From IMG/VR virus record IMGVR_UViG_3300043773_000401, positions 50,818 to 114,817 of that record: a DNA stretch of 64,000 nucleotides. One strand, 5' to 3'. The notes below the pieces were generated by a model. It was not told the DNA's origin, did not search any database, and saw only the letters and a list, made by a program, of their open reading frames with translations. This DNA comes from a virus. The translations under genes were made by a program, and so were the position numbers. Shown here piece after piece: positions 16,433 to 44,041 of this stretch; positions within the stretch are counted from its first letter, which is position 1, and every line of letters starts with the position of its first letter.

Positions 16433-19018
16433 CTATTGCTTATTTTGTGGATTAGAAGCTGTTGGATAACTATAATAATCAGGAAGTTCATATTCATCTT
16501 GTGGTTGATTTTTTGAACTTGCTGTTATAAGTTTAATAAGCTCTGCATTAGATAAATCAGAATAGTTTGGATCTGATCTATATATGTCATATAGCTCAAG
16601 TGGTGTTTTAGCAGAACCTGCACTTGGTTTCATTGTAGAACCTCTAGTAAATATAACATTACCTGTAACAGGATCTGTTTGAAAGTGAGGATACATTGCA
16701 TTCATAGCTGCTGTCTTACCAGCATTAGTAAGACCTGTAATATAGTTTTGTCTTGCAGCAACTCTTAATGCTCTTGTAGTATCATCATAGTTTTGATTAG
16801 TAGCTACAGTTTCATCATAGAAGTTTTTCATAATAGCAGCATTCTGTCTATTCTGCTCATTAGATATTTGTTTTCTAGTAAGCTCAAATGTATTAGCAAT
16901 ACCAACATTCTGTTTATTTACTTGATCCATAATGTTAGCTGCATTAGCTGCTGCCTTTCCTTGTACACTAGATACTCTAGATGATAAAGCTTGTGGTCCT
17001 GCAAATGCTCCTAATGCTTGTGATGCTATAGCTGCTTGTTCAGCATTAGCTGCAAGAGCTCTTTCTGGAGATATAAAAGTAGGACTAGGTAACTCATAGT
17101 TAACTGTCTGTAGTGTTGGGTAGTATCTGTTAACTGAATAGATATCACCTATTGATCCTAAAGTATTTGCTACATCTTGTGTCCACCATCTAGCTGGAGT
17201 AACACCAGTTTCAGTAGCATCTAATGGTTCAACATCATAAGGTTCTACTTTATCTTCTTCTTTTTCTTCTTCTAAATCTAATAGATTATAAGCTGCATCT
17301 TTAGGAAGAATAATTTCACCTGCTGTAGTATTTCCATAGATAGCATCTATTGGAGAAATTGGTCTTCCTTTTTCATCTGTTTGATCTTTTTTACCTATAG
17401 GTGTAACATCAAAGTTAGCAAGAACATCTTTATACTTAGGATCATCAGCTAGCTCTTGTATAGATTTAAAAATTCCTTGGAATGCTCTGATTTTAGTATC
17501 ATCAAAAGCATCAAACCCTAGTTGAGACATTACTTCTTTATATCTTTTATTTCTTGGGTATGTATCCCAGGATGGATCACCAACTACTTTAGTACCAGAT
17601 GCATTAATAGCATAGTTCTGTTTTTGTCCTTCTAAGAATATCTCAGTTACTTCTTCAGGTGTAAGTTTTAAAAGCTCATCTTTTTGACCTTGACTTAGTC
17701 CACTTCTAAAACCTTTAATTTTTTCTTGAAACTGTTTATATAAATCTTGTTGTAAATTTTTATTGTTTCTGAAAAGATAATCTAACTGACCATACTGAGT
17801 TTGTAGTTTACCTAATCTAGGATCATCAATTTTAGTTGAAGGCATTACAACACCTTTAAGCAACTGATATCCTCCACCTGGTTTTTCTACAAATATTTTT
17901 TGGTCTTTAGTAGCTATCTTTTGAGTTTGTTGTAGTCTTGCTTGGAAGTCTATATCGGATTCTCCTTTTATTCTAGATACAATAAGATCTTTACCTTCTC
18001 TTGGTCCATTCTTATATTTCTTAGTAACTTGTTCTCCATCTTGGTATTTTTTTAAACTACCTCCTTGTTTCATCATTGCTTGGCCTTGCATATAAGCTGG
18101 TTCTTCAAACATGACTTGTTCTTCCATAGGAGCTTCCATTGTCATAGGTTGCTGCAATGCTTCAGCCATTTGTTGAATAGTAACCATCTGATCTTCTTCT
18201 GGTAGTTCTTGAAGCTGCATCATTATTTGTTTAGCATCTCCACCAGTAAGTTGTGCAAACTGTGATATAATATTACTAATAACATCATAGTCTAATTCTG
18301 TGTCTTCTTCCATTTCTGGTGATCCCCCATATTGCATAGGTGGTACCATTTCATATTGTGCTTCTGATTGAGCCATTGCATTTTGTTGTGGCATACCTTG
18401 TTGCATTTGTTGAGGTGCCATCTGTGGTAAAATAGACTCTGCTGTAGTACCTACTTTATCCATATAAGGTAAAGCTACTATTGGAACTCCTTGAGGAAAT
18501 CCTTTTTTAGCTTCTTGTACTAATGCTAGCTTTCCTAACTTAATGTTATAGTTCTTAATCATTAGTTCAGCAGTTTTCTTAGCAAACTTATCAGAGTCTG
18601 GACTAGCAAGAATCTTTACATATTCATTAATGTCATATTTATTAGCAAGCTCTGCAGGTGTATAACCTTTAACTCCTTTCTTTTTAGTTTTACCAAATTG
18701 TTCTAAGAGTTCTTTTTCTTTGATCTTCATACTGTTGGTATCACTGTATATAAAAGAATCATTAGGAGCTTTTAAAGGTGTGCCTCCCTCATAATGTCTT
18801 TTACCTCCAATCTTATATGTTGCAGGAATACCACCAAACTTAGAAGGTATCATAATAATTTCACCTTTCTCAGCTTCTAGATCAGCTTCTTCTCTAGGTA
18901 CACCAGGAAGACTTTTATTTACCTTAAGCTTTGGTTCAGATAATTTATCAGGAATAAACTGGGGAGCCATCTGATTATACCAGATACCACCATTTTTAAA
19001 TATGAATTTCTTACTCAT
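16433..19018 (-). CDS. Putative cargo protein (~861 aa) with an EAEKGE...GKRHYEGG domain, a Q/M-rich linker and an Ala/Asn/Gln-rich C-terminal helical region
   Basis: ORF track gives 16433..19033; a start at ATG 19018 (MSKKF) leaves a shorter overlap with the upstream gene. Contains xKxGG motifs. Confidence 0.55.
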   Translation of the reverse strand: MSKKFIFKNGGIWYNQMAPQFIPDKLSEPKLKVNKSLPGVPREEADLEAEKGEIIMIPSKFGGIPATYKIGGKRHYEGGTPLKAPNDSFIYSDTNSMKIKEKELLEQFGKTKKKGVKGYTPAELANKYDINEYVKILASPDSDKFAKKTAELMIKNYNIKLGKLALVQEAKKGFPQGVPIVALPYMDKVGTTAESILPQMAPQQMQQGMPQQNAMAQSEAQYEMVPPMQYGGSPEMEEDTELDYDVISNIISQFAQLTGGDAKQIMMQLQELPEEDQMVTIQQMAEALQQPMTMEAPMEEQVMFEEPAYMQGQAMMKQGGSLKKYQDGEQVTKKYKNGPREGKDLIVSRIKGESDIDFQARLQQTQKIATKDQKIFVEKPGGGYQLLKGVVMPSTKIDDPRLGKLQTQYGQLDYLFRNNKNLQQDLYKQFQEKIKGFRSGLSQGQKDELLKLTPEEVTEIFLEGQKQNYAINASGTKVVGDPSWDTYPRNKRYKEVMSQLGFDAFDDTKIRAFQGIFKSIQELADDPKYKDVLANFDVTPIGKKDQTDEKGRPISPIDAIYGNTTAGEIILPKDAAYNLLDLEEEKEEDKVEPYDVEPLDATETGVTPARWWTQDVANTLGSIGDIYSVNRYYPTLQTVNYELPSPTFISPERALAANAEQAAIASQALGAFAGPQALSSRVSSVQGKAAANAANIMDQVNKQNVGIANTFELTRKQISNEQNRQNAAIMKNFYDETVATNQNYDDTTRALRVAARQNYITGLTNAGKTAAMNAMYPHFQTDPVTGNVIFTRGSTMKPSAGSAKTPLELYDIYRSDPNYSDLSNAELIKLITASSKNQPQDEYELPDYYSYPTASNPQNKQ

Positions 19019-21623
19019 ATGTATTACCTCCAATATTTTTGATTTTTCTTATAACAGGGCTAGTTAAGAATTGTGTCATACCATTTACAAATACACCACC
19101 TTGTTGTGCATATGGTCCAGTATATACTAGTTCATTAGGTCTAAATGAATTCCAGTTAGTAGAATAATCTCCACGGTTAGTATCATAGTTTTGCATAAAC
19201 AAAGAAGTAGGGTCTTGCATCTTCTTTCTAAAGTCTTGCTTTCTTTTATTAGCTTCTAGATCTTTTCCTATACCTGTAAGCATATTAACACCCATCAATG
19301 ATAGATCTGCTATAGATTGATTAGTAGGTCTTAGACCTTCTTTAATATCAGCTTCTACAGAATTATTTAATAGGTTTTTAAATTTGAATGTTTTATTAAA
19401 TCCAGATCCATCTGCATATTTAGGCATACCTCCATATCTTCTATAAGTCATATCATATAACTTAGTACCTGGTTGTCCTTCACCTTGTCCAGTAGTATTA
19501 TCCATAGTAGGAGCTGGAGTATTATAATTATTAGCAGCAGTATTTGTAGCTGTTGAAGGTGTTGTATTAGTATTAGTAAGATTACTAGTAGTTGTATTAG
19601 ATGTGTTAGTTGTATTGGCAGTATTACTTGTTGCTGTACCTGGACCAAAGTTTAATATCCCTTTGAATCTTTTAAGTGAAGGAGATCCCCAGAATATAGG
19701 ATTTCTAGTTTTTAGTTCATTAACAACTATTTGATTTAAAGGACCAGCAAATCCTGTAAAACCACCAGGGAAATTACCTTTAAGTTTAACATTAGAATAT
19801 GGTTGCCAGTTAATAGGTAGTAAATCAAATAAACCACCTGTAGGTCTTGGACTTGTTTGTACATTAGTTTTAGAACTTACATCTACCCAAGTTGTACCAT
19901 CCCATCTTTTATATTTACCATCTATTACTCTTATATCTCCTTTTTCTAGTCCACTTGTTTTACCATCTGTCCCAGTATTAGCTTTACTATCTGTTCCACC
20001 AGAAGGTCCAGCAACATTAACACCTGTTGGAAGATTACTAGTAGTAGCTGATCCTGCATTAGAACTATAATATTTCTTAGCATAATCTTTTGTTTCATTT
20101 ACTCTATTTGTCCATTCAGCTAGTTTAGAAGGAGTAACACCTGAAGTATTAGTATAACTTCTAATTTTTTCTGCAGCAAAAGGATCACCTAAAGCATCTC
20201 CCATTGCCATAACATCTTTACCATATTTTTGCCAAGCTGCATCTACAGCAGTAGGATCTAATTTTCCTGACTTATACATAGCAACTTTTTCTGCAGGTGT
20301 TAATTTACCAGCAGCTACCATCATAGAAGCTCTAGGATCTTCACTATTAAAAGCAAAGTCAAAACCCATAGCTTGTTGGGATAGTGGAAGTTCATAAAGT
20401 CCATACTTATTATAGTACTTATCTATAGCATCTTTAATAGCTTCATCTCTTCCTCCTGTATATGGTGAATATGATTTTTCTGGATCTTGTGTAAATCCAT
20501 AATTGTCATAACCTAATCTAGTCTCACGATCTATTGTATTAGCAACAATATCATATGCTTTATTATACTCAGGTGTACCAGGTTGAACAGCTTTTCCTAC
20601 TTGAGCTTGTTCTAATGCTTCATCTTCTTTTTCTAGCTCTTCTTGATTCTTTAAGTATTGACTAAATGGAGTAAACTGATCAGATCTCATATTATCAAAT
20701 CTACCACCAAAGAATGCTGATAACCCTTCTCTAAATCCTGGTTCTGTTTCAGAAGCTTCATAAGCATCTTGAAAAGATTCCCAGTTACTAAATGGATCAA
20801 AGTTAAGTTCATTAGTATTACCACCATCTGCCATCTTTTTCATTCCTCCATTCTTCATTAAGAAAGGATATGTTTCTTTAAGATTAGCCATGGCAGCTGT
20901 ACTTCTTAGATAATTGATAAAGTTAGTTGTCTTACCTAAATAACTATCTGGTCCTTCTGAGTATCCTGCCATACCACCATCTTGTGCCATTGGCATAGCC
21001 TCTTCTTGCATTTCTCCCATTTGTTGGGGTTGCATTTGTTGAGCTTGCATTTCTTGTTCCATCATCTGTTGATCCATAGGAGCTTCAGTTTGTGGTGAAG
21101 AAGATTGAGCTTCCATAATAGGTCTTACTTCTTCAATGATCTGCATTAAAGCTTGTTCTTGTTCTTCAGGACTAAGTTGCTGTAGTTGTGCTATTACATC
21201 TTCTACACTTGAGTTTATAGATTCAGCATATATAGCAAGTACTTGAGCTATCATATCTTGTTGACTCTGACCACCATCTTGTCTTTTTCTTAATCCTCCC
21301 CCACATTCAAAACATGGCTGACCACCTTTCATGAACATCATCATATTAGGAGCAGGTATACCATAGCTAAACATTTGAGCTGCAGTAGGAGCTGCATAAT
21401 AAGGAGACCCCCCATTCTTCATGGTAACAGTACTAAACTGCATAGGAGCACCAAAGTTATAAAACTCTGCTTCTGTTCTAGCTTGGGGAAAAGCTGTAGT
21501 ACCACCAAACTTCATCTGAAATTTTTCTGGGGTATCATACTCTCTATAAAATGCTGCTTCTCCTTCTGGGGTGTTTGGATACCCTGCCATGCTTAGGTAG
21601 TCTTCTTTTCTCATAGAATACAT
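19011..21623 (-). CDS. Putative cargo protein (870 aa) with many xKxGG motifs and a GH108-like lysozyme module
   Basis: RETRLGYDNYGFTQ...YY...LPLSQQAMGFDFAFNS resembles Glyco_hydro_108 (EGG..T.YGIT...LP...FD.AVNSG). Has Q/M-rich and T/N-rich linkers. Confidence 0.55.
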   Translation of the reverse strand: MYSMRKEDYLSMAGYPNTPEGEAAFYREYDTPEKFQMKFGGTTAFPQARTEAEFYNFGAPMQFSTVTMKNGGSPYYAAPTAAQMFSYGIPAPNMMMFMKGGQPCFECGGGLRKRQDGGQSQQDMIAQVLAIYAESINSSVEDVIAQLQQLSPEEQEQALMQIIEEVRPIMEAQSSSPQTEAPMDQQMMEQEMQAQQMQPQQMGEMQEEAMPMAQDGGMAGYSEGPDSYLGKTTNFINYLRSTAAMANLKETYPFLMKNGGMKKMADGGNTNELNFDPFSNWESFQDAYEASETEPGFREGLSAFFGGRFDNMRSDQFTPFSQYLKNQEELEKEDEALEQAQVGKAVQPGTPEYNKAYDIVANTIDRETRLGYDNYGFTQDPEKSYSPYTGGRDEAIKDAIDKYYNKYGLYELPLSQQAMGFDFAFNSEDPRASMMVAAGKLTPAEKVAMYKSGKLDPTAVDAAWQKYGKDVMAMGDALGDPFAAEKIRSYTNTSGVTPSKLAEWTNRVNETKDYAKKYYSSNAGSATTSNLPTGVNVAGPSGGTDSKANTGTDGKTSGLEKGDIRVIDGKYKRWDGTTWVDVSSKTNVQTSPRPTGGLFDLLPINWQPYSNVKLKGNFPGGFTGFAGPLNQIVVNELKTRNPIFWGSPSLKRFKGILNFGPGTATSNTANTTNTSNTTTSNLTNTNTTPSTATNTAANNYNTPAPTMDNTTGQGEGQPGTKLYDMTYRRYGGMPKYADGSGFNKTFKFKNLLNNSVEADIKEGLRPTNQSIADLSLMGVNMLTGIGKDLEANKRKQDFRKKMQDPTSLFMQNYDTNRGDYSTNWNSFRPNELVYTGPYAQQGGVFVNGMTQFLTSPVIRKIKNIGGNTYE

Positions 21624-21632
21624 ATTAATATA

Positions 21633-21664
21633 CTAATATACAAATATAATGTTAATTATTCAAA
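21633..21664 (-). promoter_or_regulatory. Putative promoter TTTG-N20-TATATTAG
   Basis: Exact 20-nt spacer, upstream of the 870-aa gene. Confidence 0.6.
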
Positions 21665-24600
21665 TTATCTAGCCAGCCTCTCTTTTGTCCTCCATATTTA
21701 TTCATTTGACCAGTAGTAAATCCTAAAGGCACATTAATAGCTTTTCCTGTATTTTGAAATGGAAGAATTATTGCAGGACGTTCATTTACCCATCTATCAC
21801 TATAACTTGGATCTCTTCCTATACTTTGTAAAAAATTAAAAAGTTTTGCTGAATATCTTCTTTCATTTCCTGCAGCATAATCACTTAATCTAGATCTTTT
21901 TGAAATATCTAATCCTGTATCTGCAGGTTTAAATAATTTATTAATTTTTCTTGCTTGTTCAGGAGTAAGTTCTTTATCTCTAAAACTATGATTTATTTTC
22001 ATTATATCTTCCCATTCCTTTTTTAAATTTGGATATATTTCATTTATATCATTAGGAGTTTTATTAGGATCTATTTTACCATATTTATCATAAATAGCAT
22101 CTATTCTTTTTAAATATTCTTTATTATTTTTTATAAGTTGATTGATTTCAGCATTTGTATAAAAATCTTTTTCTGTTAAAAGAGGTTCTTTAGTAGCTAG
22201 ACTTTTTGCCTCATTTACTAGATTTTTTTTATTAGTTAGTTGTTCTTTTTTCCATTTCCTAGCATAGTCTTTTACATCTTTAATAGCCTCATCGTAATAT
22301 TTTCTTTGAGTAAAATTTTGATAATCTTCAGGATCTGCTTTGTATACAAGTCTTCCAGAAGCATCTCTATATTCTAACTTCTTAGGATTTACATATGTAG
22401 GTTTACCTTTACCTCTAGTAAATTGTGGTTGACCAGCAAATGAAGAAAGTATACCTTCAGCACCAGTTAATGCCATTTTAGTATAATCTACTTCTCCAGT
22501 ATTAGGATCCACAAATGGAGCCGATATATCTGTAGAAGGTAGATTAATAGACCCTTGATTCATTGGTCCATATCCTGATGTTCCTTGCTCTGTATAAAAT
22601 AATTGAGGTAGTCTATTTCTAAATTCTTTAATAAACTTATTAGGTTCTTTACCAAAGAATGCTCCTTGATTTATTAATGCTCTAGGATCTGCTTTATCAG
22701 ATATTTCTATAGCTGGTAAATCTATAGGTCCTATAGTAGGAACTTCTTCACCTACTTGTGCTTTAGGTAGATTATCTAACCATCCTCCTTTTTTATACAT
22801 TGTATTATTATTTAATTGATTATATCCTGCAGCACCTAATCCAGTTAAACCTATTGCTGGTATTAAAGCTGGAGCATTATTTAACTGTTCTGTTAAGAAT
22901 CTAAGATTAATAGGACTCTTTTTTATAAAACTACCTATTCTGTCTCCTTTAGTACTATTAAAATAATCTATTACCATATCTTTAGTAATACGATCTTCTA
23001 AGTTTTTAATAATGCCTTTATTCATCATATTCTGTCTTAACTCTCTTAAATGAGGTAATCTTTCAACATCTCCTTTCTCAAGGTGGTGCCAATAATCTAA
23101 AGATTCTGCTGCTCTTGTAAGTTCAGGTGTATTTGTCATTGTTCTAGATGAGCCTTCAATATTAGCTAATTGTTGTATAGCTTCAGGTTTAGCTTCTAAT
23201 GTTTTTAAAGCTTCATCTATTTTAGTAGGTTTACTTAATAATGTTGGTCCTGTTGGTTCAGGATCATATAACCAATTATATATATTACGTTTAAATGGAT
23301 TGGTAGTTTTTTTAGCTTCAATTTGTCTTTGTTTCCATTCAGCTAATTCATCTTGAAATTTTTTAATATCTTTCAAGTATTCATTCATTCTATAATATTC
23401 TCTTTGTAAATGGTGACCTGTTTCATGTTCTAATGCAGTTCTAGGAGTTAAATCTAAACCTCGTTGTTTTTTTAAGTTATTTAATTCTCTAAAGTCTATA
23501 TTAACTGTAGCTGTTGGAGAAAAATACTTGGTCTTTTCACCTGATCTAAATGTTAAATTATAAGGTATCATTTTGTCAGGTGTAATACCAATATCTTCTA
23601 ATCTTCTTCTACCTTCTGGTGTTTTCCAAAACTCTGCTGATTTATTAGAATATTCTTTAAGATCTTTAATCTCTTTTCTAAATTGTAAAGGGGTTATAAG
23701 CTTATTATCTAAGTTATTCTTAAGCTTAGTAGTAAGTTCTTTAAAAAAGTTTTTTAACTCTTCAGAACTAAGATCTCTATATCGTAATGCATTAACAGCA
23801 TTTGATAATGGTTTTTTAGTTAATGATCCTATTCCTCCTAACATAGGAGTTACCTCAGCCATATTAAGTGATCTTTCTACATCAGCTTCATCTAAAATAG
23901 GAGTAGCACCATATGCCCCAGCAACTAGGTTAAGGAAAGTTTTACCATACTTAGTAGGATTATTATAGATATCTCTAGCAGCATTAATAGGTGATGATAA
24001 TATTTCTGCCATGTATTGTCCAGAAGGATCTAGTTTAGGTCCTAGATCTATATCTGGTAAGTTTTGTCTAAAACCAGCTACTCTAGTTGCATCTTGTGCT
24101 CTATTAGCTTCAAGAGCTTCTTGTTTAGATAAACCTTTATTATTAAACTCATACATACTAGGTTTAGGCTTAGTAGCTTCTTTAAGAAATGTACCTAAAT
24201 CTTTATTTTTACTATATTGAAATTTAGGTTTAACTTCACCTCTATCCTGATAAGTATCTAACCACCCACCTTTACCAAATCTATAACTTACTCCTGTAGT
24301 TATATTGGGTTGATTATAATATGATCCTGCAGAAAAGTTTACATTACCTCTACCTTTATTAAAGGGTATATTAGCACTTATACTAGGACTAATATATTGA
24401 CTTAATTCAGGGTCAGATTCTATATTAAATCTATTAGCTAAGTCAAAATTTATATTACCAAAATCTACATTAGCTCCAAAGTCTCCTTCTATACCTGTAT
24501 CTCCAGACCATGTTGGATAACCACCAATGTAACCATATGGACTAACTTGAATTCTTCCTTTTTGTGCTCTATCTAACCATCCTCCTGTTTTCTTTTTATT

Positions 24601-25833
24601 TATAAATTGCTTATAAGATTCTGATTGTTTTAGTATATCATATTCTTTAGGTGATAATGTTTGTGTTTTAGTATTTTTATTTGTAGGATCACCATAATAT
24701 ATTGTGTATGTATCACCTATTCCTTGAGTCCAATCTTTTGATATGTGATTTATAGGTTTAGGTTTTTGGTTCTTTACAGTAATTATTTCTTTTTTTGGTT
24801 CTTCTTTTTTTACAGAATTTTTATTTTTCTGATATTCTTCCCAAGCAGCTTGTGATTTTTTACCCCATATACCATCTACTTCACCAATATTAAATCCAGC
24901 ATTTACTAATTCTTCTTGTTTAGCTCTTATTTCTGGATTTCTATACACTACAGGTTGTACTGGTTTTTTATATACAGGAACAAATGCTGTTCCTGCTCCA
25001 TTATATCCAGAAGTATATTGATCTATTCTTGTAGGTTTAATTTTATTTTTATCAATACCATACAAAGGAAGTAAATCAGATATTAATGGGTCATTTATAT
25101 TAAATCTTCTTTCTACACTTTCACTTCCTCTAGTAGCTAAATCTTTTTTATATTTATTATATAAACTTAAACTATCATTATAATCCTGTAGTCTAGGATC
25201 ATTAGGGTTATCTACATAGATAGTTCCTCTTTGAGCTTTAGGTATATTATCTAGCCACCCTCCATTTTTCTTTATACCTAGTTCTTTTTTCCAAGATCCT
25301 TTATCTGCAAAATTTATAGCAGCTTCTTCATCTTCTCCAAAGTTATATACCTCACCTCTTTTTTGAGCTTCCTTATATATCTTCATCCAGTCTTTTTCAT
25401 CAGACATATTAACCCATGAGTTATCTGGATTTTGAAATATACTAGGAAATGCTACCCATCCTGTAGGTCCGTATTCTCTCATCATGTAATGAGTAGAAGG
25501 TTCAGTTTGTCCTTTTAATGTTATTGATCCAACTCTAGGTTTTACATTATATCCTTTCTGAGCCATAGGTATCTCATATACTTTGTTACCTGGATAGAGA
25601 TAGTCTTGTTCTGGATACATCATCTGTGAGTTACCTAAATCATCCATTCCAAATACTGGATAAGGAACTCCTTTCATAGTTATACTATTACTATTAATTA
25701 GTGTAGGTTCTCCGGGGAATTCCCATTGACCATAATCAGATTCTATAAAACCTGATGTAGTTCTTTTAACATAATTAGGACCTCCTTTAAGACCTTCAGT
25801 AGCTTTCTTCTGATAGTATAACTTCTTCTTCAT
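21652..25833 (-). CDS. Modular polyprotein-like putative cargo protein (1393 aa) with GGWLD linkers, a peptidoglycan-binding motif, a beta-rich module and an HExxH metallopeptidase
   Basis: Four GGWLD linkers plus a terminal RGWLD; QEELVNAGFNIGEVDGIWGKKSQAAWEEYQ (PG_binding_1-like); ALEHETGHH. Confidence 0.65.
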   Translation of the reverse strand: MKKKLYYQKKATEGLKGGPNYVKRTTSGFIESDYGQWEFPGEPTLINSNSITMKGVPYPVFGMDDLGNSQMMYPEQDYLYPGNKVYEIPMAQKGYNVKPRVGSITLKGQTEPSTHYMMREYGPTGWVAFPSIFQNPDNSWVNMSDEKDWMKIYKEAQKRGEVYNFGEDEEAAINFADKGSWKKELGIKKNGGWLDNIPKAQRGTIYVDNPNDPRLQDYNDSLSLYNKYKKDLATRGSESVERRFNINDPLISDLLPLYGIDKNKIKPTRIDQYTSGYNGAGTAFVPVYKKPVQPVVYRNPEIRAKQEELVNAGFNIGEVDGIWGKKSQAAWEEYQKNKNSVKKEEPKKEIITVKNQKPKPINHISKDWTQGIGDTYTIYYGDPTNKNTKTQTLSPKEYDILKQSESYKQFINKKKTGGWLDRAQKGRIQVSPYGYIGGYPTWSGDTGIEGDFGANVDFGNINFDLANRFNIESDPELSQYISPSISANIPFNKGRGNVNFSAGSYYNQPNITTGVSYRFGKGGWLDTYQDRGEVKPKFQYSKNKDLGTFLKEATKPKPSMYEFNNKGLSKQEALEANRAQDATRVAGFRQNLPDIDLGPKLDPSGQYMAEILSSPINAARDIYNNPTKYGKTFLNLVAGAYGATPILDEADVERSLNMAEVTPMLGGIGSLTKKPLSNAVNALRYRDLSSEELKNFFKELTTKLKNNLDNKLITPLQFRKEIKDLKEYSNKSAEFWKTPEGRRRLEDIGITPDKMIPYNLTFRSGEKTKYFSPTATVNIDFRELNNLKKQRGLDLTPRTALEHETGHHLQREYYRMNEYLKDIKKFQDELAEWKQRQIEAKKTTNPFKRNIYNWLYDPEPTGPTLLSKPTKIDEALKTLEAKPEAIQQLANIEGSSRTMTNTPELTRAAESLDYWHHLEKGDVERLPHLRELRQNMMNKGIIKNLEDRITKDMVIDYFNSTKGDRIGSFIKKSPINLRFLTEQLNNAPALIPAIGLTGLGAAGYNQLNNNTMYKKGGWLDNLPKAQVGEEVPTIGPIDLPAIEISDKADPRALINQGAFFGKEPNKFIKEFRNRLPQLFYTEQGTSGYGPMNQGSINLPSTDISAPFVDPNTGEVDYTKMALTGAEGILSSFAGQPQFTRGKGKPTYVNPKKLEYRDASGRLVYKADPEDYQNFTQRKYYDEAIKDVKDYARKWKKEQLTNKKNLVNEAKSLATKEPLLTEKDFYTNAEINQLIKNNKEYLKRIDAIYDKYGKIDPNKTPNDINEIYPNLKKEWEDIMKINHSFRDKELTPEQARKINKLFKPADTGLDISKRSRLSDYAAGNERRYSAKLFNFLQSIGRDPSYSDRWVNERPAIILPFQNTGKAINVPLGFTTGQMNKYGGQKRGWLDNLNN

Positions 25834-28800
25834 CGTGGTGACAGTAAGTTTTTAGTATTAGATATCTTGAATATCATTTTAACATTTCCAGATTTTTCTC
25901 TATATAGATTTATAAAGTTAAGATAATGTCTAAACTTCTTTCTCTGTAATGGATCTTTGCTATAGTTTAAGTTGTTCTGGTTAAGAACTCTATCATAACC
26001 ATTTTCTGATGTATCCCATATAGCTCTTTGAGCATAACCAGGAATAGTAGGATTTAAGAACTCTCCTCTATCTGCAGTAATATCCCAGAACTGATTGAAT
26101 CTATATTTGTTTTCTTCTTTAGAAAATAGTACTTCTATATTGTTAAGATTGATAATAGGATATTGTAGTCTTCCTATGATATCATTCTTAGGTGTACCTC
26201 TAAGTATTAACTGTCCTGATACTTGTTCAGGATTGTAAATAACGGCATGATCAAAGTTAAAGTCTAGTCCTGTGTTAGGATCTGTAAGAACATTAAACTG
26301 ATCTATACCATTAGTAGAGTAAATATAGTTTTCTAGAATATACTCTACACTTCTTATAGTATTTACTGTTTGACCGGTAGGTATTGCATACTCTACTTCA
26401 AATCTGTAATCTTGATTATAGAAGTTACAGAAGCTATCTGTTCTAAAGTTATGTCTCCAAATACCAGTATCTTTTGTAGTATAGAAGTTTCTTCTACTAG
26501 GTATAACCATATCAGGGTGCCAGTCATGGTAAGATATCCAAGCTTCTGATTTAGCATCATAACTTACTGTCCAAGATGCATCTTCAAAGATTTCATTTTC
26601 TTCTAGTTTATACTCACCACCTCTGTAAATAAATAGGTTTACTTCAGTTTCTTTACCAGTTACTGGATCTGTTTGGTATCTTACAAATCTAACTTCTTCC
26701 TTAGGAACCTTAAGTTTAAAGTCTTTCTTACAGAAGTATACTAACTGATCAGAGTTATCATATATAGTTTGACATCCTACACCAGATATTGGATTATCAG
26801 TAAATGGATATTCTGGAAAATCTTGTGTTAGTCTATAAGGTAAATACCAATCAAACCACCATCTTAATCCTGAAGCAGATATTTCTTTTAATCCACCAAA
26901 GTATCTAAAGATTTTACCTTGACTTTGACTTATCCAATATACTCCAGTAGGTGTGCTTATTATTGAGTATCTGTCTTGGCATGATCCATATTCAAATGCT
27001 ATATCTGCATTTACAATTGACTGTTGTGGTTGTGAGAATAGACCTCCATCACCAATAGTTACCTTAGTACCAAGTTCTGTTTCTAGAACATCTACTCCTT
27101 GGAACATTAATGGACTATCAGTTTCAAATGTTATAATAGCACCATTCTTAGCAATACCATTAATAGAGTTAGGTTTGTTTAAGAACTCTTTATAGTTATT
27201 AGCTAGGAATGCATACCAGAAATCTTTCTTAGCTTCCAAGTTTTGAGGAAGAGAATAAAGAACTCTGTTTGGATAATAAGTATAACAAAACTCAGATACA
27301 TTAGGGTCATAACCTCTATCTTGCATATTACCCCATGAGATATAGTTATTAAATAACTTAGTTATACTTAGTGAGTAATCATACTTATAGTAGTTATCAG
27401 CTTTTATAATCTCAGTATCAAACAATGCTTGTAGATCTGTATATCTAAATGGATCATAGAATCTTTCTTGTGGTTCTTCATCCCAGTCTCTTTGATCTAC
27501 ATTAATCTCTGACTCTACAATGAAGTCTCTTACTCCTGTATTAAATAAATAGAAGAATCCATTAAGTACATTAAATAGTCCACTGCTACCTGCAAATGGT
27601 ACAGCTGTACAATGTCCTCTATCTAGATGATGAAAATTACTTGGGAATAAAGGATTAGATACTGGATCAGGTTCAGTAAATGTTGATCCATTAAATAGTG
27701 TATTTAAGAAACTACCTAAATCAAAGCCTGTAAAATTTGCCCAGAATCTAGGATACTGAATCATATACTTAAGTGTATAGTCTAGTTCAGTACCATCTGG
27801 TAAATTATATAACCAGTCATAGAAATAGAAGAACTTATTTTTTTCTGTATATCTACCAACATATGTATCTCCACCAAACATTAATCCTGTAGAATATTTT
27901 TTATCAAACTCACAAGGATTAGCTAGTTGTTCATTAGTAATTCTACCAATCTTAAACATACATGGAGAAGCTACTACTTGTTTAACTTGATCTAGTTGAC
28001 CATACAAGTTTCTTATCCTATACTTAAGAGCTCCATAATAAACTGCTGTTTTAGTTCTAAACTGAGCAGTGTAATTATCAAACCATACTTTATCTTGTGA
28101 ATTAGCAGATAGGTTATTACCTAAGTTATCAGCACCTGTTGGAAATAAAGCAGGGAAACTCGTAGCAGCTTGAACAGATCCTAAAGTTTGTATAGTATTA
28201 TCTGTAAATAAATATTGTGAATTAGGATTAGTAATACAAGTACCTATAGCATTAAGTATTTTATCTTGTAGAGTTATAGGTTTATCTAGATCTAGTACTA
28301 CACATTTATTTCTAAATAAGTTATTTATAGTATACTCTTTAGGATTTAATGGGAAGTTTTCTACCTGTATAGTTTGTAGATTAGTATCTAAGTATAATGA
28401 TTGATTTATAAGTTTTCTTTGATTACCTATAGCACAAGCTCTTCCTGGATCAAATACTGTATAAGCTCCATGAGATCTATACATAAGAGCATACTGTTCA
28501 TATGATAAGAAAGCTTCTATAAGTTTAAGTACAGAGTCTGCTGCTTGTGTCCAATAATATATAAGTGTAGTAATAGCACCAACCGGCATAATAGAATTAC
28601 TATTTTGAAAAGCAGTCTCTTCAAATTCATATTCTGTTTCTGGTCCTAATGATGCAGGCTGACCTGTAGCTGTTGTAAAACTTATTGTAGCACCAACATC
28701 AGCTGAACCAATTAATGGTACAAGAGAATTTAATAATTCTGCTATTGGAGTTTGAGCTGCTAAAGCACCATTTACAGATCCTGTAATTATTCCTGCTGAT

Positions 28801-33476: not shown

Positions 33477-33483
33477 AGATATA

Positions 33484-33515
33484 CTAATTTACAAATTTTT
33501 TTCAAAGAATAAAAA
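33484..33515 (-). promoter_or_regulatory. Putative promoter TTTT-N20-TAAATTAG
   Basis: Near match to the repeated intergenic motif; lies immediately after a terminator. Confidence 0.5.
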
Positions 33516-38925: not shown

Positions 38926-38954
38926 AATTTTCTATAAGTTATACTAGTGTGAGA

Positions 38955-40343: not shown

Positions 40344-40381
40344 TGTTTTTTGTTTTAAAAGTTATACAAATAAATAATAAT

Positions 40382-40413: not shown

Positions 40414-40414
40414 T

Positions 40415-41008: not shown

Positions 41009-41019
41009 TTATATAAAAA

Positions 41020-41724
41020 TTAATTGTTCTGTTCTCCTGATTGAGCATTAATCTGTACTTGAGCAATAGATTCTATATCACCTGCTATAATAGCACAAGC
41101 CTCATCAATAAGAACTTCAGTAATGTCATCCTTGAATTCACATTCTACATTAGTAGTACTAATTAGACCTGTGTATGGATCAACACAACCTTCAATCTGT
41201 ATATTGATAGGCTTTCTATAGAAGTATAAATCTATATTTTCTAGATCAAACTCATTGTTTGTATATATCCTAAGTTTATTATTAATAAGGGTCATAAAAG
41301 TTTCTCCCCATTCAAAACTAGGTTTCTTAAGATAATCTCTAAGTAAGTTAGGTACGTTAGCTTCTTCTGCTAAATATACTACCATTTCTTTGTTAGTACA
41401 GCATTCTGAAAAAGCTGATAGATGAACTCTCTTAAACTCCATATAGTTTTCTGGAAGATCCAGAGTAGTTTCATAATAACCATCAAACTTACTTAGATCT
41501 AGGGTAGACTTATTTAACAATATCTGTAAGTCATCTACTCTTCTCTTAGATTGTTCATCTCCTTGTTTAAGAATATTAGTACCAACAAGCTGTCTACGGC
41601 ACCATTGAATCATGCCTTTATTGAATGCTTCTATTATTTGCCAACATTCAATATTGTCATAATCCTGGCTATCTAACTTGTTTAGCCTTTGCTTAACCTT
41701 TATTTGGAGTGTTGAATTTAACAT
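41020..41724 (-). CDS. Head-tail ring/adaptor protein (crAss-like)
   Basis: RLNKLDSQ...QSKRRVDDLQIL, LPENYM, YFYRKP, CEF...EVLIDEA pattern. Confidence 0.65.
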   Translation of the reverse strand: MLNSTLQIKVKQRLNKLDSQDYDNIECWQIIEAFNKGMIQWCRRQLVGTNILKQGDEQSKRRVDDLQILLNKSTLDLSKFDGYYETTLDLPENYMEFKRVHLSAFSECCTNKEMVVYLAEEANVPNLLRDYLKKPSFEWGETFMTLINNKLRIYTNNEFDLENIDLYFYRKPINIQIEGCVDPYTGLISTTNVECEFKDDITEVLIDEACAIIAGDIESIAQVQINAQSGEQNN

Positions 41725-42128
41725 TATCCTTTCTTGCTACGCATTTTACCTAGAGTTTTAGCTAAGTTAGCTTGTCTCTTAGTTGTTGTACTTGCTTTAG
41801 ATCCTGGTTTAGTTACCTTAGCAGCATAAGCAGCAGTAGACATACCAGCAGCTTTAGCTTTAGCAGAGAATGCACCTGGGTTTTTAATAGCACCCTTGAT
41901 CCAATTTTTCTTAGCTCCACCAGCTTTAAATACTCCACGTCCTTTAAGGATGTCTGCTTGAGTTACTTTACCATCACCTGTAAGATCTGGAAACTTTGAT
42001 CCTCCCATCTTATAGTTCTTACTTTCCATCTTCTGATAATCAGCATTAAGTTTATTTACCTTACTCTTTTTATCTTGAGGACGGGTAACATACCCTGGAT
42101 TCATGTTTAATTTAGTAGTCTTTTTCAT
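41724..42128 (-). CDS. Small basic modular protein with an EF-hand-like DLTGDGKVTQAD loop
   Basis: 134 aa, Lys/Ala-rich; segments separated by YKMGG and FKAGG. Confidence 0.65.
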   Translation of the reverse strand: MKKTTKLNMNPGYVTRPQDKKSKVNKLNADYQKMESKNYKMGGSKFPDLTGDGKVTQADILKGRGVFKAGGAKKNWIKGAIKNPGAFSAKAKAAGMSTAAYAAKVTKPGSKASTTTKRQANLAKTLGKMRSKKG

Positions 42129-42138
42129 ATATAAATAA

Positions 42139-42498
42139 TTAGCAGTTCCATTTTCTTAATGACTTATTAATCCTAGAGTTAGGATCATTTGCAGTCTTAG
42201 ATGAAGTAAGCTTCTTCTTCATACCAGACATTCTAGCACAAAAAGACTTTCTTCTATTAGCAGCTTCACTACCTTTCTTTAACTTAGAAGGTTCTGTAGT
42301 AACAGCTGTCTTAAGTTTAGATCCAGGGTTTTCTCTACGGTAAGAAGCAACACCTTTAGCATTAAGACCACCAGAAGGATTCTTACCTTCTTTTCTCTGC
42401 CATGCAGGAGTAGATCCTCCCTTCTTCATCTGAGGAGTCTTACCAGCTTTCTTCATTGAGATAGCTATTGCTGCTTGTTGTTTTGCATTCTTTGTCAT
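42139..42498 (-). CDS. Small basic protein (DUF6321-like)
   Basis: AWQRKEGKNPSGGLNAKG...RRKSFCARMSGM...SRINKSLRKWNC. Confidence 0.65.
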   Translation of the reverse strand: MTKNAKQQAAIAISMKKAGKTPQMKKGGSTPAWQRKEGKNPSGGLNAKGVASYRRENPGSKLKTAVTTEPSKLKKGSEAANRRKSFCARMSGMKKKLTSSKTANDPNSRINKSLRKWNC

Positions 42499-42507
42499 AG
42501 TAATATT

Positions 42508-42642
42508 TTATCTACCTTGACCTCTATATCTTTTAGGTTTCTGTTCCTTAGGACCAAACTTCTTTTTAAGCTTGCCTGTAGTTTTAACACCAAAGGTTAC
42601 TTTACCTCTTTCTACTTTACCTTTACCACCTGCTTTTGCCAT
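42508..42642 (-). CDS. 44-aa basic mini-protein ending KRYRGQGR (below the ORF-track cut-off)
   Basis: MAKAGGKGKVERGKVTFGVKTTGKLKKKFGPKEQKPKRYRGQGR; exactly fills the gap between its neighbours. Confidence 0.7.
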   Translation of the reverse strand: MAKAGGKGKVERGKVTFGVKTTGKLKKKFGPKEQKPKRYRGQGR

Positions 42643-42644
42643 AA

Positions 42645-42914
42645 CTATCTATATTTACTAGCTTTATTAGCTATTGATTTAGGTTGTTTTACAAATTGTT
42701 TACCCTTCCTATTACCTTCAGCTTTAACCTTATTAGTAGCAGCTTTTTCTCCTGCTGACATAGCAGACCAGGCAGCTTCAGGAAGATACCTTTTAGTACC
42801 CTTAGATTTTACTTCTTTACTCAAGCCTTTCTTTTTATTAGCATGAGTACCAGAAGTCATCCATTTCTGAGCTGTCCAGTCTTTTAAACTCTTCTGTGAT
42901 TTAGCTAGTGCCAT
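42645..42914 (-). CDS. Small basic protein resembling the C-terminal half of DUF5872
   Basis: SQKSLKDWTAQKW...RYLPEAAW...GKQFVKQP. Confidence 0.6.
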   Translation of the reverse strand: MALAKSQKSLKDWTAQKWMTSGTHANKKKGLSKEVKSKGTKRYLPEAAWSAMSAGEKAATNKVKAEGNRKGKQFVKQPKSIANKASKYR

Positions 42915-42932
42915 TCTTTTTCTAATTTAAAC

Positions 42933-43388
42933 TTATTCTCCATAATAACCAAACATCTTTAAATAATCAATTGCATTCTGTAATATAATAGGACTATCTT
43001 CAAACATACCTAATGCCCTATTACACTTCTTACACAACAGACCTCTAAATTCATCTGTCTTATGATTATGATCAATTGCGCTTTCACTTATTAATATATG
43101 TTTATTACATATGGCACAACATTCTTCTTGCCTTTCATAAACATCTATTAATTCTTCAGGTGTTATTCCTCTTCTTTGACATCTTTTTGCTAGAGTCCAC
43201 GAGTCTTTCTCTCTATATTCTCTAACTTTATCTGGATTATTTTCAGTCCAGTTTCTATGTTCATTATATAAACATTTATTACATTTACTTTTTAATAAAT
43301 GTTTTTGTGATCCACCTCTACTTCTAAACTCAGAAGTATCTTTAGATTTTTTACAACTTGAACATATTTTAGTTTCTATATCCACCAC
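42933..43388 (-). CDS. Endonuclease VII-type HNH (putative free-standing homing endonuclease)
   Basis: N-terminal CxxC...CxxC zinc ribbon; CAIC...IDHNH...RGLLCKKCNRALG...D...AIDYL. Confidence 0.85.
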   Translation of the reverse strand: MVDIETKICSSCKKSKDTSEFRSRGGSQKHLLKSKCNKCLYNEHRNWTENNPDKVREYREKDSWTLAKRCQRRGITPEELIDVYERQEECCAICNKHILISESAIDHNHKTDEFRGLLCKKCNRALGMFEDSPIILQNAIDYLKMFGYYGE

Positions 43389-43734
43389 CTTTACTTTTGT
43401 ACTCTTTAGCTAACAACTGACTTTTTCTAGCTGACCATTCTCCAGGATCTCCACCTTTAGTACCAGCCTTTATCTTGTTGAATAATGATTTACGCATACC
43501 AGGCTTGGTATAATTACCTGCCTGGTTTACCTTAGACTTAGTAGAACCACCTTTTTTCATAGTCTCAGCTATTCTGATTTTACGGTCTTGAACTTTAGCT
43601 GCTCTACCTAATAGTCTATTAGCTTTTTGTTCTCTACCTTCATCAACAGCTTTATTGCCTTTATAAACTAGACGTTCTTCTCTTTTCTGAAGTCTTGCTA
43701 GTTTTCTTGCTTTATCACCAGGTGTTTTCATCAT
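43369..43734 (-). CDS. Small basic protein whose C-terminal part resembles the N-terminal half of DUF5872
   Basis: NYTKPGMRK...KGGDPGEWSARKSQLLAKEYKSKGGGY, located after an MKKGG linker. Confidence 0.6.
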   Translation of the reverse strand: MMKTPGDKARKLARLQKREERLVYKGNKAVDEGREQKANRLLGRAAKVQDRKIRIAETMKKGGSTKSKVNQAGNYTKPGMRKSLFNKIKAGTKGGDPGEWSARKSQLLAKEYKSKGGGYRN

Positions 43735-43735
43735 A

Positions 43736-44041
43736 TTATTTCTTTTTACCCATTTTCTTCATGCCACCCTTCTTCATCATACCACCATATTTTAATGGAG
43801 ATACAGTAGCTTTAGGATTAACATTAGTCATAACTCCACTAGATCCAGGAACTTTTTGTACAGTAGCTCCTTTATTAACTCCTACCATAACTCCTCTTGA
43901 GCTAGGTACTTTAGTTACTTGGAAGTCACTTTGTGGATTAGGGTTATTCATAGCACCAGTCTTAGCCTTAGGTAAAGACTTCATACCACCTTTCTTCATC
44001 ATTGAGGCAGTAGATGCTTTTTTGGTCATAGATTTTTTCAT
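43736..44041 (-). CDS. Small Lys/Met/Gly-rich protein with an internal repeat
   Basis: Two MKKGG and one KYGG; repeat VxKVPxSxGVMxxVN. Confidence 0.65.
   Translation of the reverse strand: MKKSMTKKASTASMMKKGGMKSLPKAKTGAMNNPNPQSDFQVTKVPSSRGVMVGVNKGATVQKVPGSSGVMTNVNPKATVSPLKYGGMMKKGGMKKMGKKK

What the first reader, a model, noticed from the sequence alone, without database searches (positions are those of the whole stretch)
16433..44041. A shared xKxGG / AQxG peptide tag links putative cargo polyproteins and capsid-adjacent mini-proteins: a candidate virion packaging or processing code
Seen: the short motif [M/F/Y/K/A]-[K/Q/A]-x-G-G, often followed by K-[A/Y]-[Q/A/K]-x-G, recurs more than 20 times in two separate loci. 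Locus 1 is three consecutive large proteins: 1393 aa (KKNGG, KKTGG, FGKGG, YKKGG, NKYGG); 870 aa (MKFGG, MKNGG twice, RQDGG, AQDGG, MADGG, RRYGGMPKYADG, AQQGG); 861 aa (FKNGG, MQYGG, MKQGGSLKKYQDG). Locus 2 is the tiny basic genes after MCP (MKKGGMKSLPKAKTG, LKYGG, MKKGG, YKMGG, FKAGG, AKAGG). The motif falls at boundaries between unrelated mini-domains and is essentially absent from portal, TerL and tail proteins. The mini-protein cluster and the 870-aa gene also share the identical TATATTAG promoter box. Inference: it is a portable tag for loading proteins into the capsid, or a di-Gly protease site that releases modules, letting the phage shuffle effectors as cassettes.
Basis: partly seen in the sequence, partly recalled or inferred. 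Interest (0 to 1): 0.85.

Follow-up and report, generated by a model that had tools for sequence, protein, structure and literature searches.

The report
Gly-Gly junction motif in phage cargo
A six-residue peptide ending in two glycines marks the joints and ends of small basic head-module proteins and of three large proteins next to the tail-tip gene of an uncultured marine crAss-like phage; it sits exactly where T4-like phages carry their head-protease cut site in the same modules, so it is most likely a processing site, though its protease is unknown and no cutting has been shown.

Summary
The motif [MFYL]-[KQ]-x-G-G, usually followed by S/T/A/M, occurs 15 times in eight proteins (3,693 aa). 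It is absent from the other 17,245 aa of the window and occurs once in the rest of the 114.8-kb phage genome. Shuffles give 0.7. It recurs in 80 related contigs: 204 observed against 8.9 expected.

It lies in low-confidence linkers at the edges of mini-modules. These modules also exist as stand-alone genes.

The key new result concerns fused homologues from other phages. In these, the same module boundary carries either this Gly-Gly motif, or a T4 gp21-type hydrophobic-x-Glu site, or a start codon. The two junction types are mutually exclusive between proteins. The one T4-type genome tested encodes the gp21 (S77) protease, and all eight Gly-Gly genomes tested lack it.

Best reading (about 45%): a cleavage site that turns bead-string precursors into small basic head proteins and cuts three cargo-position proteins. 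No protease was found. Three unrelated phage lineages share the junction, so an uncleaved docking motif or linker remains a serious rival.

A universal packaging tag is not supported, because the largest cargo candidates lack the motif. Earlier scan reports describe similar protease-type linkers on other DNA: Glu-type in T4-like phages, Gly-Gly in a giant virus.

The parts
21652..25833 (-). 1393-aa first protein after the muzzle gene (position of crAss001 cargo gp45). It has four K-x-G-G instances at aa 188, 414, 1013 and 1378, plus FGKGG. Each is followed by W-L-D (the last by G-W-L-D at the C-terminus) and mostly by P-K-A-Q-x-G. HETGH lies at aa 803 and a weak peptidoglycan-binding match at aa 299-338.
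   Evidence: synteny with the muzzle gene and PMC10172136
19011..21623 (-). 870-aa second protein after the muzzle. MKFGG (aa 37) follows a ~35-aa N-terminal module that is conserved in relatives. Further motifs lie at aa 68, 114, 213, 256, 264 and 839, mostly in Met/Gln/Pro-rich low-complexity stretches.
16433..19033 (-). 866-aa third protein after the muzzle (861 aa from the ATG). It has an N-terminal leader ending in FKNGG. MQYGG and MKQGG (the latter followed by S-L-K-K-Y-Q-D-G) lie in the variable linker after a conserved ~230-aa N-domain. YKIGG lies inside that domain.
43736..44041 (-). 101-aa Lys-rich protein. A leader with MKKGG and L-P-K-A-K-T-G is followed by a repeat module that stands alone in relatives, then LKYGG and MKKGG six residues apart, then an 8-residue Lys tail.
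43369..43734 (-). 121-aa protein. A helical N-part and MKKGG (aa 59) are followed directly by the phrog_17747 module (aa 63-120).
42645..42914 (-). 89-aa stand-alone basic module (phrog_14910) without the motif. It shows that modules can function without it.
42508..42642 (-). 44-aa basic ORF that begins M-AKAGG.
42139..42498 (-). 119-aa protein. A 22-aa 'QQAAIA' module and MKKGG (aa 24) are followed directly by DUF6321 (aa 38-117 by Pfam). In some relatives the two halves are separate genes.
41724..42128 (-). 134-aa protein. From N to C: an N-peptide, YKMGG, an EF-hand/dockerin-like loop module, FKAGG, and a four-helix C-module (phrog_20603). Both motifs lie in pLDDT<50 linkers.
45178..46803 (-). 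Major capsid protein (context). No core motif.
25830..31193 (-). Crassvirus muzzle protein (context). It fixes the three large proteins at the cargo position.
   Evidence: PF25731, 8.6e-30
44063..44075 (-). 13-nt box GTATATTAGTATA upstream of the small-protein operon. An identical copy lies at 21629-21641 (-) upstream of the 870-aa gene. A copy with one mismatch lies at 33480-33492 (-) upstream of a gene that has no motif.

Best explanation
The motif hydrophobic(M/F/Y/L)-K/Q-x-G-G, followed by a small residue (S/T/A/M), is the recognition and cleavage site of a protease that acts on virion-internal proteins of this crAss-like phage.

The small Lys-rich genes after the capsid gene encode bead-string precursors. 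Cutting after Gly-Gly would release mini-modules of about 20 to 90 residues (DUF6321, a four-helix basic module, an EF-hand-like loop and others). It would also remove short basic leaders and 5-8-residue Lys tails. The released pieces probably act as small basic proteins and peptides packed with the DNA.

The three proteins after the muzzle gene stand where crAss001 has its cargo proteins. They would be cut in their low-complexity linkers into separate domains.

Shown: the motif, its enrichment, its position at module edges, its conservation, and its equivalence in position to gp21-type sites.

Inferred: cleavage itself, its timing (in the head or after ejection), virion residence, and the existence of a protease, which is not identified.
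For: 1. Specificity profile. P5, P4, P2, P1 and P1' are constrained while P3 is free. S/T/A/M make up 75% of P1' against 28% expected. Lys is depleted fourfold at P1' in proteins that are 19% Lys.

2. Position. The motif abuts the N-edge of conserved modules and falls in pLDDT<50 linkers between confident helices. Stand-alone versions of the same modules start 2-3 residues from where the post-GG residue lies in fused versions.

3. Junction equivalence. In 118 fused DUF6321 proteins the 2-5 residues before the module carry hydrophobic-x-E in 94 cases (L/I in 70%), the Gly-Gly motif in 22, and a start Met in 1. gp21 is known to cut after L/I-X-E (PMC9026906). A second module shows the same two classes. 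The strict motif occurs 36 times per 5,891 aa in GG-class proteins and once per 28,097 aa in xE-class proteins.

4. Protease co-variation. Peptidase_S77 is present in the xE-class cyanophage ACG-2014f. It is absent from this genome, from four complete relatives, from the 48-kb lineage and from pelagiphage HTVC027P.

5. Persistence through turnover. The motif persists in cargo-position proteins of relatives although their sequences have diverged almost beyond recognition.

6. Leaders and tails. Short N-terminal leaders end in the motif, and short tails follow it, peaking 5-7 residues before the stop. This resembles propeptides and the capped last unit of polyubiquitin.
Against: No protease was found.
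- There is no Pfam C48, C5, S78 or S77 match at E<=1.
- There is no peptidase family among 75 further ORFs, in the giants or by PDB sequence search.
- The only peptidase-like gene, DUF2201_N+VWA, is missing from relative G004 and from the 48-kb lineage.
- The HExxH sites have no family support, and the fold attempt failed.

Three unrelated lineages share the junction but share no gene other than the mini-modules. This fits a host or common protease, or no protease at all.

Neither the capsid, the scaffold-like protein nor the portal carries a site, so this would not be a classical prohead protease.

Residues after Gly-Gly are also conserved in the large proteins (W-L-D, P-K-A-Q-x-G). Motifs often come as doublets 8-10 residues apart. 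Both features fit a binding element at least as well as a cut site.

The hydrophobic residue is at P5, not P4 as in adenain or PLpro sites.
Confidence: 0.45

Rival explanations
1. The motif is an uncleaved short linear docking element. It, or its bipartite form with W-L-D and P-K-A-Q-x-G, would bind a virion component (portal, tail-barrel rings, inner capsid surface or scaffold) or another cargo protein. This would tether flexible proteins inside the particle, much as encapsulin cargo-loading peptides or the bound segments of crAss001 gp45 do.
For: The residues after Gly-Gly are conserved in the large proteins, and the motif is conserved at the very C-terminus of the first cargo-position protein in three of five genomes. 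Motifs come as doublets and multiple copies per protein, which would raise avidity. No protease was found. In crAss001, short segments of gp45 are held by the portal, the barrel rings and the muzzle (PMC10172136). The phage has the Crass ring proteins.
Against: Many modules exist as free genes without the motif, and the largest cargo candidates lack it, so it cannot be a general loading requirement. The same junction is used by phages with unrelated virion proteins, which a specific docking partner does not explain. A docking motif also does not explain its replacement by a protease site at identical boundaries in T4-like phages.
Confidence: 0.27
2. The motif is a passive or DNA-contacting linker that travels with the cassettes. 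A Gly-Gly hinge flanked by Lys and a hydrophobic wedge would join modules in Lys-rich DNA-condensing proteins, needing neither an enzyme nor a protein partner. It would be shared between lineages because the cassettes are exchanged horizontally.
For: It lies in disordered, Lys/Gly-rich context. It is shared by three unrelated marine phage lineages that exchange the same modules at 63-91% identity. No cognate enzyme was found.
Against: A hinge needs no fixed P5/P4/P1' residues, yet these are kept while the surrounding linker varies. The motif also arises in lineage-specific large proteins that are not exchanged cassettes, within acidic Met/Gln/Pro-rich linkers rather than Lys-rich ones. Short leaders and tails bounded by the motif have no role as linkers.
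Confidence: 0.2
3. The motif is chance, a compositional effect, or a nucleotide-level signal. Examples would be a Shine-Dalgarno-like AAGGAGG, an internal start codon, or a recombination linker.
For: M-K-K-G-G can be encoded by ATGAAAAAAGGAGG, and the proteins are Lys/Gly-rich.
Against: Shuffles that keep composition give 0.7 against 15 observed, and 8.9 against 204 observed. GGT and GGA are used as in the genome at large, and the Lys codons vary. In 39% of instances the first residue is F, Y or L, which are not start codons.
Confidence: 0.01

Closest known systems
T4 internal proteins and core proteins processed by prohead protease gp21 (MEROPS S77): capsid-targeting leaders and L/I-x-E sites. 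The same applies to phiKZ and SPN3US head and ejection proteins cut at x-E.
   Same: There are short N-terminal leaders and small basic head-internal products. Large ejection proteins are cut in linkers. The very same mini-modules (DUF6321, phrog_17747 type, the 'QQAAIA' module) are joined by L/I-x-E in T4-like cyanophage proteins at the boundaries where this phage has the Gly-Gly motif (PMC9026906).
   Different: No S77 or S78 protease gene is present. The site ends in Gly-Gly instead of Glu. The capsid and scaffold-like proteins carry no site. Cleavage is not shown.
Adenovirus core maturation by adenain (clan CE, C5), with (M/L/I)-x-G-G|x sites in pVI, pVII, pre-Mu, pTP and others. Related Gly-Gly proteases include ASFV pS273R, Ulp1 and coronavirus PLpro.
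   Same: Sites end in Gly-Gly with an upstream hydrophobic residue and a small P1'. The substrates are highly basic, presumably DNA-bound proteins plus larger internal proteins. Sites occur in tandem near N-termini, and short C-terminal peptides are released. This comparison rests on my own knowledge of adenain.
   Different: The hydrophobic residue is one position further out (P5), with Lys/Gln at P4. No clan CE family matches anywhere in the genome. The resemblance is one of logic, not of membership.
Polyvalent proteins of phages and conjugative elements (Iyer et al. 2017, PMC5512222)
   Same: They are multi-module proteins encoded among late or virion genes. They are predicted to be delivered with the DNA and processed into units by an embedded zincin peptidase. 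The 1393-aa protein and the giants carry HExxH.
   Different: That work defines no junction motif. Here many modules are only 20-60 residues long, no MPTase family match was obtained, and the proteins that carry most motifs are small operon-encoded chains rather than giants.
crAss001 cargo proteins gp45 (C1) and gp46 (C2) (PMC10172136)
   Same: The gene position directly after the muzzle gene is the same. The sizes are similar. The proteins are partly unfolded or low-complexity, and the virion machinery is crAss-type (muzzle, ring 1, ring 2).
   Different: No sequence similarity was detected. The paper reports no protease or cleavage. crAss001 is not known to have the cluster of small basic proteins.
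Encapsulin cargo-loading peptides
   Same: These are short Gly-rich peptides at protein termini that direct cargo to the inside of an HK97-fold shell. A ferritin-like gene lies in the same head module.
   Different: The motif is mostly internal and repeated, and is absent from the ferritin-like protein. The one co-folding trial gave no verdict.

Membership tests
T4-type gp21 (S77) processed head-internal proteins | The genome encodes an S77 (or S78) prohead protease | tested here: not met
   PF03420 and PF04586 give no match at E<=1 in the own genome. A positive control rang in cyanophage ACG-2014f.
T4-type gp21 (S77) processed head-internal proteins | Junctions and leaders end in L/I-x-E | tested here: not met
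   Junctions here end in K/Q-x-G-G. The L/I-x-E class is confined to other lineages.
T4-type gp21 (S77) processed head-internal proteins | Substrates are small head-internal proteins or modules encoded in the head module | tested here: inconclusive
   The modules are homologous and lie in the head module. Virion residence has not been measured for this phage.
Adenain / clan CE Gly-Gly maturation system | A clan CE cysteine protease gene (C5, C48 and relatives) | tested here: not met
   PF00770 and PF02902 give no match at E<=1. Pfam and PHROG scans of the other ORFs found none.
Adenain / clan CE Gly-Gly maturation system | Site consensus (M/L/I)-x-G-G|x with the hydrophobic residue at P4 | tested here: not met
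   The hydrophobic residue is at P5, and P4 is K (77%) or Q.
Adenain / clan CE Gly-Gly maturation system | Cleavage after Gly-Gly demonstrated | not testable with these tools
   This needs virion mass spectrometry or N-terminal sequencing.
Polyvalent proteins (Iyer et al. 2017) | Several unrelated effector or binding domains in one late-gene polypeptide | tested here: met
   The 1393-aa protein is divided into at least five segments by its repeats. Small proteins hold 2-6 modules.
Polyvalent proteins (Iyer et al. 2017) | An embedded zincin-like MPTase domain | tested here: inconclusive
   HETGH lies at aa 803 of the 1393-aa protein, and HExxH occurs in the giants. There is no Pfam or PDB sequence match, and the single-sequence fold had pLDDT 37.
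Crassvirus cargo proteins C1/C2 | Encoded directly downstream of the muzzle gene in a crAss-type virion module | tested here: met
   crAss_MUZ at 25830-31193; CrAss_Ring_1 and CrAss_Ring_2 are present; gene order as in PMC10172136.
Crassvirus cargo proteins C1/C2 | Sequence or fold similarity to gp45/gp46 | tested here: not met
   There is no PHROG family for the 870- and 866-aa proteins, and only endolysin-type hits for the 1393-aa protein. tblastn against 50,697 phage records gave no match. Fold was not tested.
Encapsulin-type cargo-loading peptide | The peptide binds the luminal face of the HK97-fold shell protein | not testable with these tools
   One co-folding job gave no verdict, which is evidence neither for nor against.

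The most novel reading that the evidence does not exclude
Crass-like and at least two other marine phage lineages use a Gly-Gly-specific protease of an unrecognised family, or one borrowed from the host. It would mature a swappable kit of basic polyproteins into DNA-associated peptides and cut their injected cargo proteins. This would be a phage counterpart of adenovirus core maturation, running alongside the Glu-specific gp21 system and interchangeable with it at the same module boundaries.
Probability: 0.3. Interest if true: 0.8.

Novelty: new variant of a known kind. Interest (0 to 1): 0.6.

Why it matters
Crassviruses and their marine relatives are abundant, and what they pack and inject besides DNA is largely unknown. 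No maturation protease or processing step has been described for them.

A six-residue motif that marks both the small basic head-module proteins and the cargo-position proteins gives a concrete, cheap test. Peptide ends at ...G-G in virion or viral-fraction proteomes would reveal a new processing system and define the mature cargo.

The junction swap is a natural experiment. The same modules are joined by a gp21-type Glu site in T4-like phages and by Gly-Gly here. This shows how phages re-fit exchanged cassettes to their own assembly line. It could be used to predict protease specificity from genomes alone.

If the motif proves to be a docking element instead, it would still be a usable handle for loading foreign proteins into such capsids.

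Tried and rejected
**Co-folding.** The capsid protein (30-row alignment) was co-folded with the 101-aa motif protein. The result was no verdict, with a score of 0.00. This is not evidence either way.

**Zincin region.** A fold of aa 632-1026 of the 1393-aa protein without an alignment had pLDDT 37 and is unusable.

**Foldseek.** The 134-aa model was searched against the PDB with no match at E<=0.001.

**Protease hunt.**
- Pfam C48, C5, S78 and S77 were searched on the genome.
- Pfam or PHROGs were run on nearly all ORFs.
- The three largest candidates were searched against PDB sequences.
- The ESM Atlas was queried for the 338-aa and 404-aa proteins that flank the capsid gene; the only named clusters were scaffold-like leads at chance level.
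- The 338-aa protein is homologous to the post-capsid protein of Leptolyngbya phage Lbo-JY46, but its Cys and His residues are not conserved, so a cysteine protease there was rejected.

**Shared-gene search.** The three Gly-Gly lineages were compared for shared genes. Only the mini-modules are shared.

**DUF2201_N as the protease.** It is present in 3 of 4 relatives and absent from G004 and G007, which makes it a weak candidate.

**Nucleotide-level readings.** A Shine-Dalgarno-like signal, internal starts and a recombination linker were rejected on codon usage and on F/Y/L at the first position.

**TATATTAG as a shared promoter.** The 8-mer occurs at chance frequency.

**Autoproteolysis at Gly|Ser/Thr.** This was rejected because Ala and Met are common at P1'.

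**Ubiquitin-like conjugation.** No E1, JAB or Ubl family appeared in the scans.

**Literature.** A search for the motif strings and for DUF6321 found nothing relevant.

**Isolates.** Distant isolates (Cellulophaga phage phi4:1, Lbo-JY46) lack both the small-protein cluster and the motif. No cultured relative with proteomics is therefore available.

Full report
**What the window is**

The window is the late half of a complete 114,817-bp phage genome with a 177-bp end overlap and 32% G+C. All late genes lie on the minus strand.

The virion module is crAss-like. In order it holds:
- large terminase (50898-53093)
- portal (48134-50896)
- a 404-aa scaffold-like protein
- major capsid protein (45178-46803)
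- a conserved 338-aa protein
- a cluster of tiny Lys-rich genes (41724-44041)
- tail genes that include Crass ring proteins 1 and 2
- the muzzle protein (25830-31193; PF25731, 8.6e-30)
- six large proteins of 1393, 870, 866, 1075, 2243 and 3777 aa, followed by a 2584-aa one outside the window

In crAss001 the genes after the muzzle gene encode cargo proteins gp45 and gp46 and then the virion RNA-polymerase proteins (PMC10172136). By position, the 1393/870/866-aa proteins are therefore cargo candidates. This is an inference from synteny, since no sequence similarity was found.

The lineage is uncultured but common. More than 594 IMG/VR stretches encode a capsid protein of 82-88% identity, on genomes of about 118-126 kb. 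The nearest isolates, Leptolyngbya phage Lbo-JY46 and Cellulophaga phages phi4:1 and phi17:2, have capsid proteins only 27-29% identical.

**The observation**

- The core pattern [MFYL][KQ]xGG occurs 15 times in the eight named proteins (3,693 aa). It does not occur in the other 17,245 aa of the window. Fisher p = 5e-12.
- Shuffling each protein gives a mean of 0.71 and never more than 5 in 5,000 trials.
- The other 50.8 kb of the genome holds a single match. The giants of 1075, 2243, 3777 and 2584 aa hold none.
- Gly and Lys codons in the motif vary as in the genome at large, so the constraint is on the peptide.

The pattern replicates outside the window. In 80 related loci there are 221 matches downstream of the capsid gene against 6 in 246,363 aa upstream. 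In the small Lys-rich proteins there are 204 against 8.9 +/- 3.2 in shuffles. In four complete relatives the first three post-muzzle proteins carry three to six [x][KQ]xGG each, and the later giants carry almost none.

The logo extends to the next residue. S, T, A or M follow Gly-Gly in 75% of 240 distinct contexts (28% expected). Lys, Gly, Leu, Pro and charged residues are depleted.

**Where the motif sits**

In the small proteins it abuts the N-edge of conserved modules:
- MKKGG at aa 24-28 comes before DUF6321 (Pfam 38-117).
- MKKGG at aa 59-63 comes before the phrog_17747 module (63-120).
- FKAGG at aa 67-71 comes before the phrog_20603 module (75-132).

An AlphaFold model of the 134-aa protein, built with 52 homologues, puts both motifs in pLDDT<50 segments between helices. 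Its C-terminal module is a confident four-helix unit with pLDDT 80-91.

Relatives show the same modules either as free genes that start M-A-K... or fused behind the motif. The spacing between Gly-Gly and the module is only 0-6 residues. Some modules are only about 22 residues long.

About a fifth of the instances lie 4-8 residues before the stop codon, followed by a Lys tail. Several proteins start with a short basic leader that ends in the motif.

In the 866-aa family (25-37% identity between genomes) the motifs lie in a variable Met/Gln/Pro-rich linker after a conserved ~230-aa N-domain. In the 870-aa family a ~35-aa N-terminal module is followed by M-x-x-G-G in three genomes. The boundary claim therefore holds. 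One instance, YKIGG in the 866-aa N-domain, lies inside a conserved domain.

**The comparative test**

DUF6321 is widespread in marine phages, with 527 phage records. These are mostly T4-like cyanophages, where it ends a multi-module protein annotated as a T4-like structural protein.

Among 120 fused DUF6321 proteins of 210-849 aa from metagenomes, 118 module starts could be placed. The 2-5 residues before the start carried:
- hydrophobic-x-Glu in 94 cases (60 distinct strings; L or I in 70%)
- hydrophobic-K/S/A-x-Gly-Gly in 22 cases (19 distinct)
- the start Met in 1 case
- A-K-T-G in 1 case

T4 gp21 cuts its substrates after L/I-X-E (PMC9026906). The two junction types do not mix. The strict Gly-Gly motif occurs 36 times in 5,891 aa of GG-class proteins and once in 28,097 aa of xE-class proteins.

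The neighbouring 'QQAAIA' module plus DUF6321 pair is joined by an acidic stretch ending L-D-E in the T4-like class. In this window it is joined by M-K-K-G-G. A second, unrelated module (the phrog_17747 type) shows the same two classes before its start.

The xE-class cyanophage ACG-2014f encodes Peptidase_S77 (4.4e-34). This genome, four complete relatives, a 48-kb phage lineage with the Gly-Gly junction and pelagiphage HTVC027P do not. This is one genome against eight.

The Gly-Gly motif thus occupies the slot that a known head-protease site occupies in another lineage. This is the strongest argument for a cleavage site, and it is indirect.

**What argues against cleavage**

No protease was found.
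- Clan CE (C48, C5), S78 and S77 give nothing at E<=1.
- Pfam and PHROGs on the remaining ORFs give no peptidase except a DUF2201_N metallopeptidase-like/VWA protein with a MoxR partner in the replication region.
- That gene is absent from relative G004 and from the 48-kb lineage.
- The HExxH sites in the 1393-aa protein and the giants have no family or PDB support, and the one fold attempt failed.

Three unrelated lineages use the same junction: this one, the 48-kb lineage with the motif proteins between terminase and portal, and HTVC027P. They share nothing detectable except the mini-modules. Either a host or common enzyme cuts, or an unrecognised protease travels with the cassettes, or nothing cuts.

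The capsid, scaffold-like and portal proteins have no site.

The conserved W-L-D and P-K-A-Q-x-G after Gly-Gly look more like a binding element. So do the conserved C-terminal K-K-L-G-G...W-L-x-K-Y of the first cargo-position protein and the doublets 8-10 residues apart.

**Weighing**

I put a protease site at about 0.45. An uncleaved docking motif gets about 0.27, and a passive or DNA-contacting linker inherited with the cassettes about 0.2. Chance or a nucleotide-level signal gets about 0.01. The small remainder is left for something not considered.

The 'universal packaging tag' reading fails, because the largest cargo candidates and many free modules lack the motif.

The depletion of Lys, Arg, Leu, Phe, Tyr and Trp at the residue after Gly-Gly would leave N-end-rule-stable termini on released products. 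This is an attractive but unproven point. The phage also encodes a ClpS adaptor.

**Relation to what is known**

In logic the system is closest to two known systems. One is T4 internal-protein processing: leaders, small basic products and cargo cut in linkers. The other is adenovirus core maturation: Gly-Gly sites in basic DNA-associated precursors and in larger internal proteins.

It fails the membership tests for both. There is no S77/S78 or clan CE protease, the hydrophobic residue is at P5, and the site does not end in Glu.

It fits the polyvalent-protein concept, in which modules are delivered together and processed (PMC5512222). That work gives no junction motif.

Earlier reports of this scan describe bead-string polyproteins with protease-type linkers in T4-like phages, and Gly-Gly-fenced basic tags in a giant virus. 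They prompted the junction comparison, which I then ran myself.

What is new here is a Gly-Gly junction class in crass-like and other marine phages without a known protease, and its one-for-one exchange with the gp21-type site.

**Not done**

No proteomic data could be consulted.

Noticed in passing
window 40415-41008 (-): A ferritin-like protein (PF00210, 5.9e-21) is encoded inside the head module next to the small basic genes, and relatives keep it. A metagenomic protein (P0258) fuses a ferritin domain to the phrog_17747 mini-module through an L-E-E junction. Ferritin may therefore belong to the same pool of packaged modules.
   Followed up: partly
window 42933-43388 (-): An endonuclease VII / HNH-type gene (phrog_2633, 1.6e-32) sits in the middle of the small-protein operon. 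It overlaps the 121-aa gene by 20 nt and looks like a homing-endonuclease insertion.
   Followed up: no
window 44063-44075, 21629-21641, 33480-33492 (all -): The 13-nt box GTATATTAGTATA (two exact copies and one with a single mismatch) lies 4-35 nt upstream of the start codons of three operon-initial late genes. It is a candidate late promoter or regulatory box. The 8-mer core alone occurs at chance frequency.
   Followed up: partly
G000:C1:12185-12496 (+), outside the window: The phage encodes a ClpS N-degron adaptor (PF02617, 1.6e-17) among its early genes.
   Followed up: partly
G000:C1:27604-29965 (+), outside the window: A DUF2201_N metallopeptidase-like/VWA protein is paired with a MoxR-type AAA+ ATPase. 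The pair is present in 3 of 4 complete relatives.
   Followed up: partly
L084-L087 second post-muzzle proteins; window 19011-19040: The second post-muzzle protein ends in a conserved acidic stretch plus N-G-G-x-hydrophobic-E-Y-(L) in four relatives. The window's 870-aa protein ends with a similar I-G-G-N-T-Y-E. This is a separate C-terminal signature.
   Followed up: no
window 41916-42014 (aa 45-66 of the 134-aa protein): The mini-module F-P-D-L-T-G-D-G-K-V-T-Q-A-D looks like an EF-hand/dockerin calcium loop. A homologue (P0063) matches Dockerin_1 weakly. The same module occurs in pelagiphage HTVC027P gp44.
   Followed up: partly
window 6386-13117 (-) and L088:116-7870 (-): The 2243-aa giant carries a PD-(D/E)XK nuclease domain (aa 1583-1739). 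The 2584-aa giant outside the window carries a GHKL ATPase domain (aa 116-225). Neither has the Gly-Gly motif.
   Followed up: no
L094 and L100 (IMG/VR contigs of 29 and 48 kb): A different, roughly 48-kb phage lineage places Lys-rich multi-module proteins with the same motif between the small terminase, large terminase and portal genes. One 684-aa chain combines DUF6321, the phrog_17747 module and a peptidoglycan-binding domain.
   Followed up: partly
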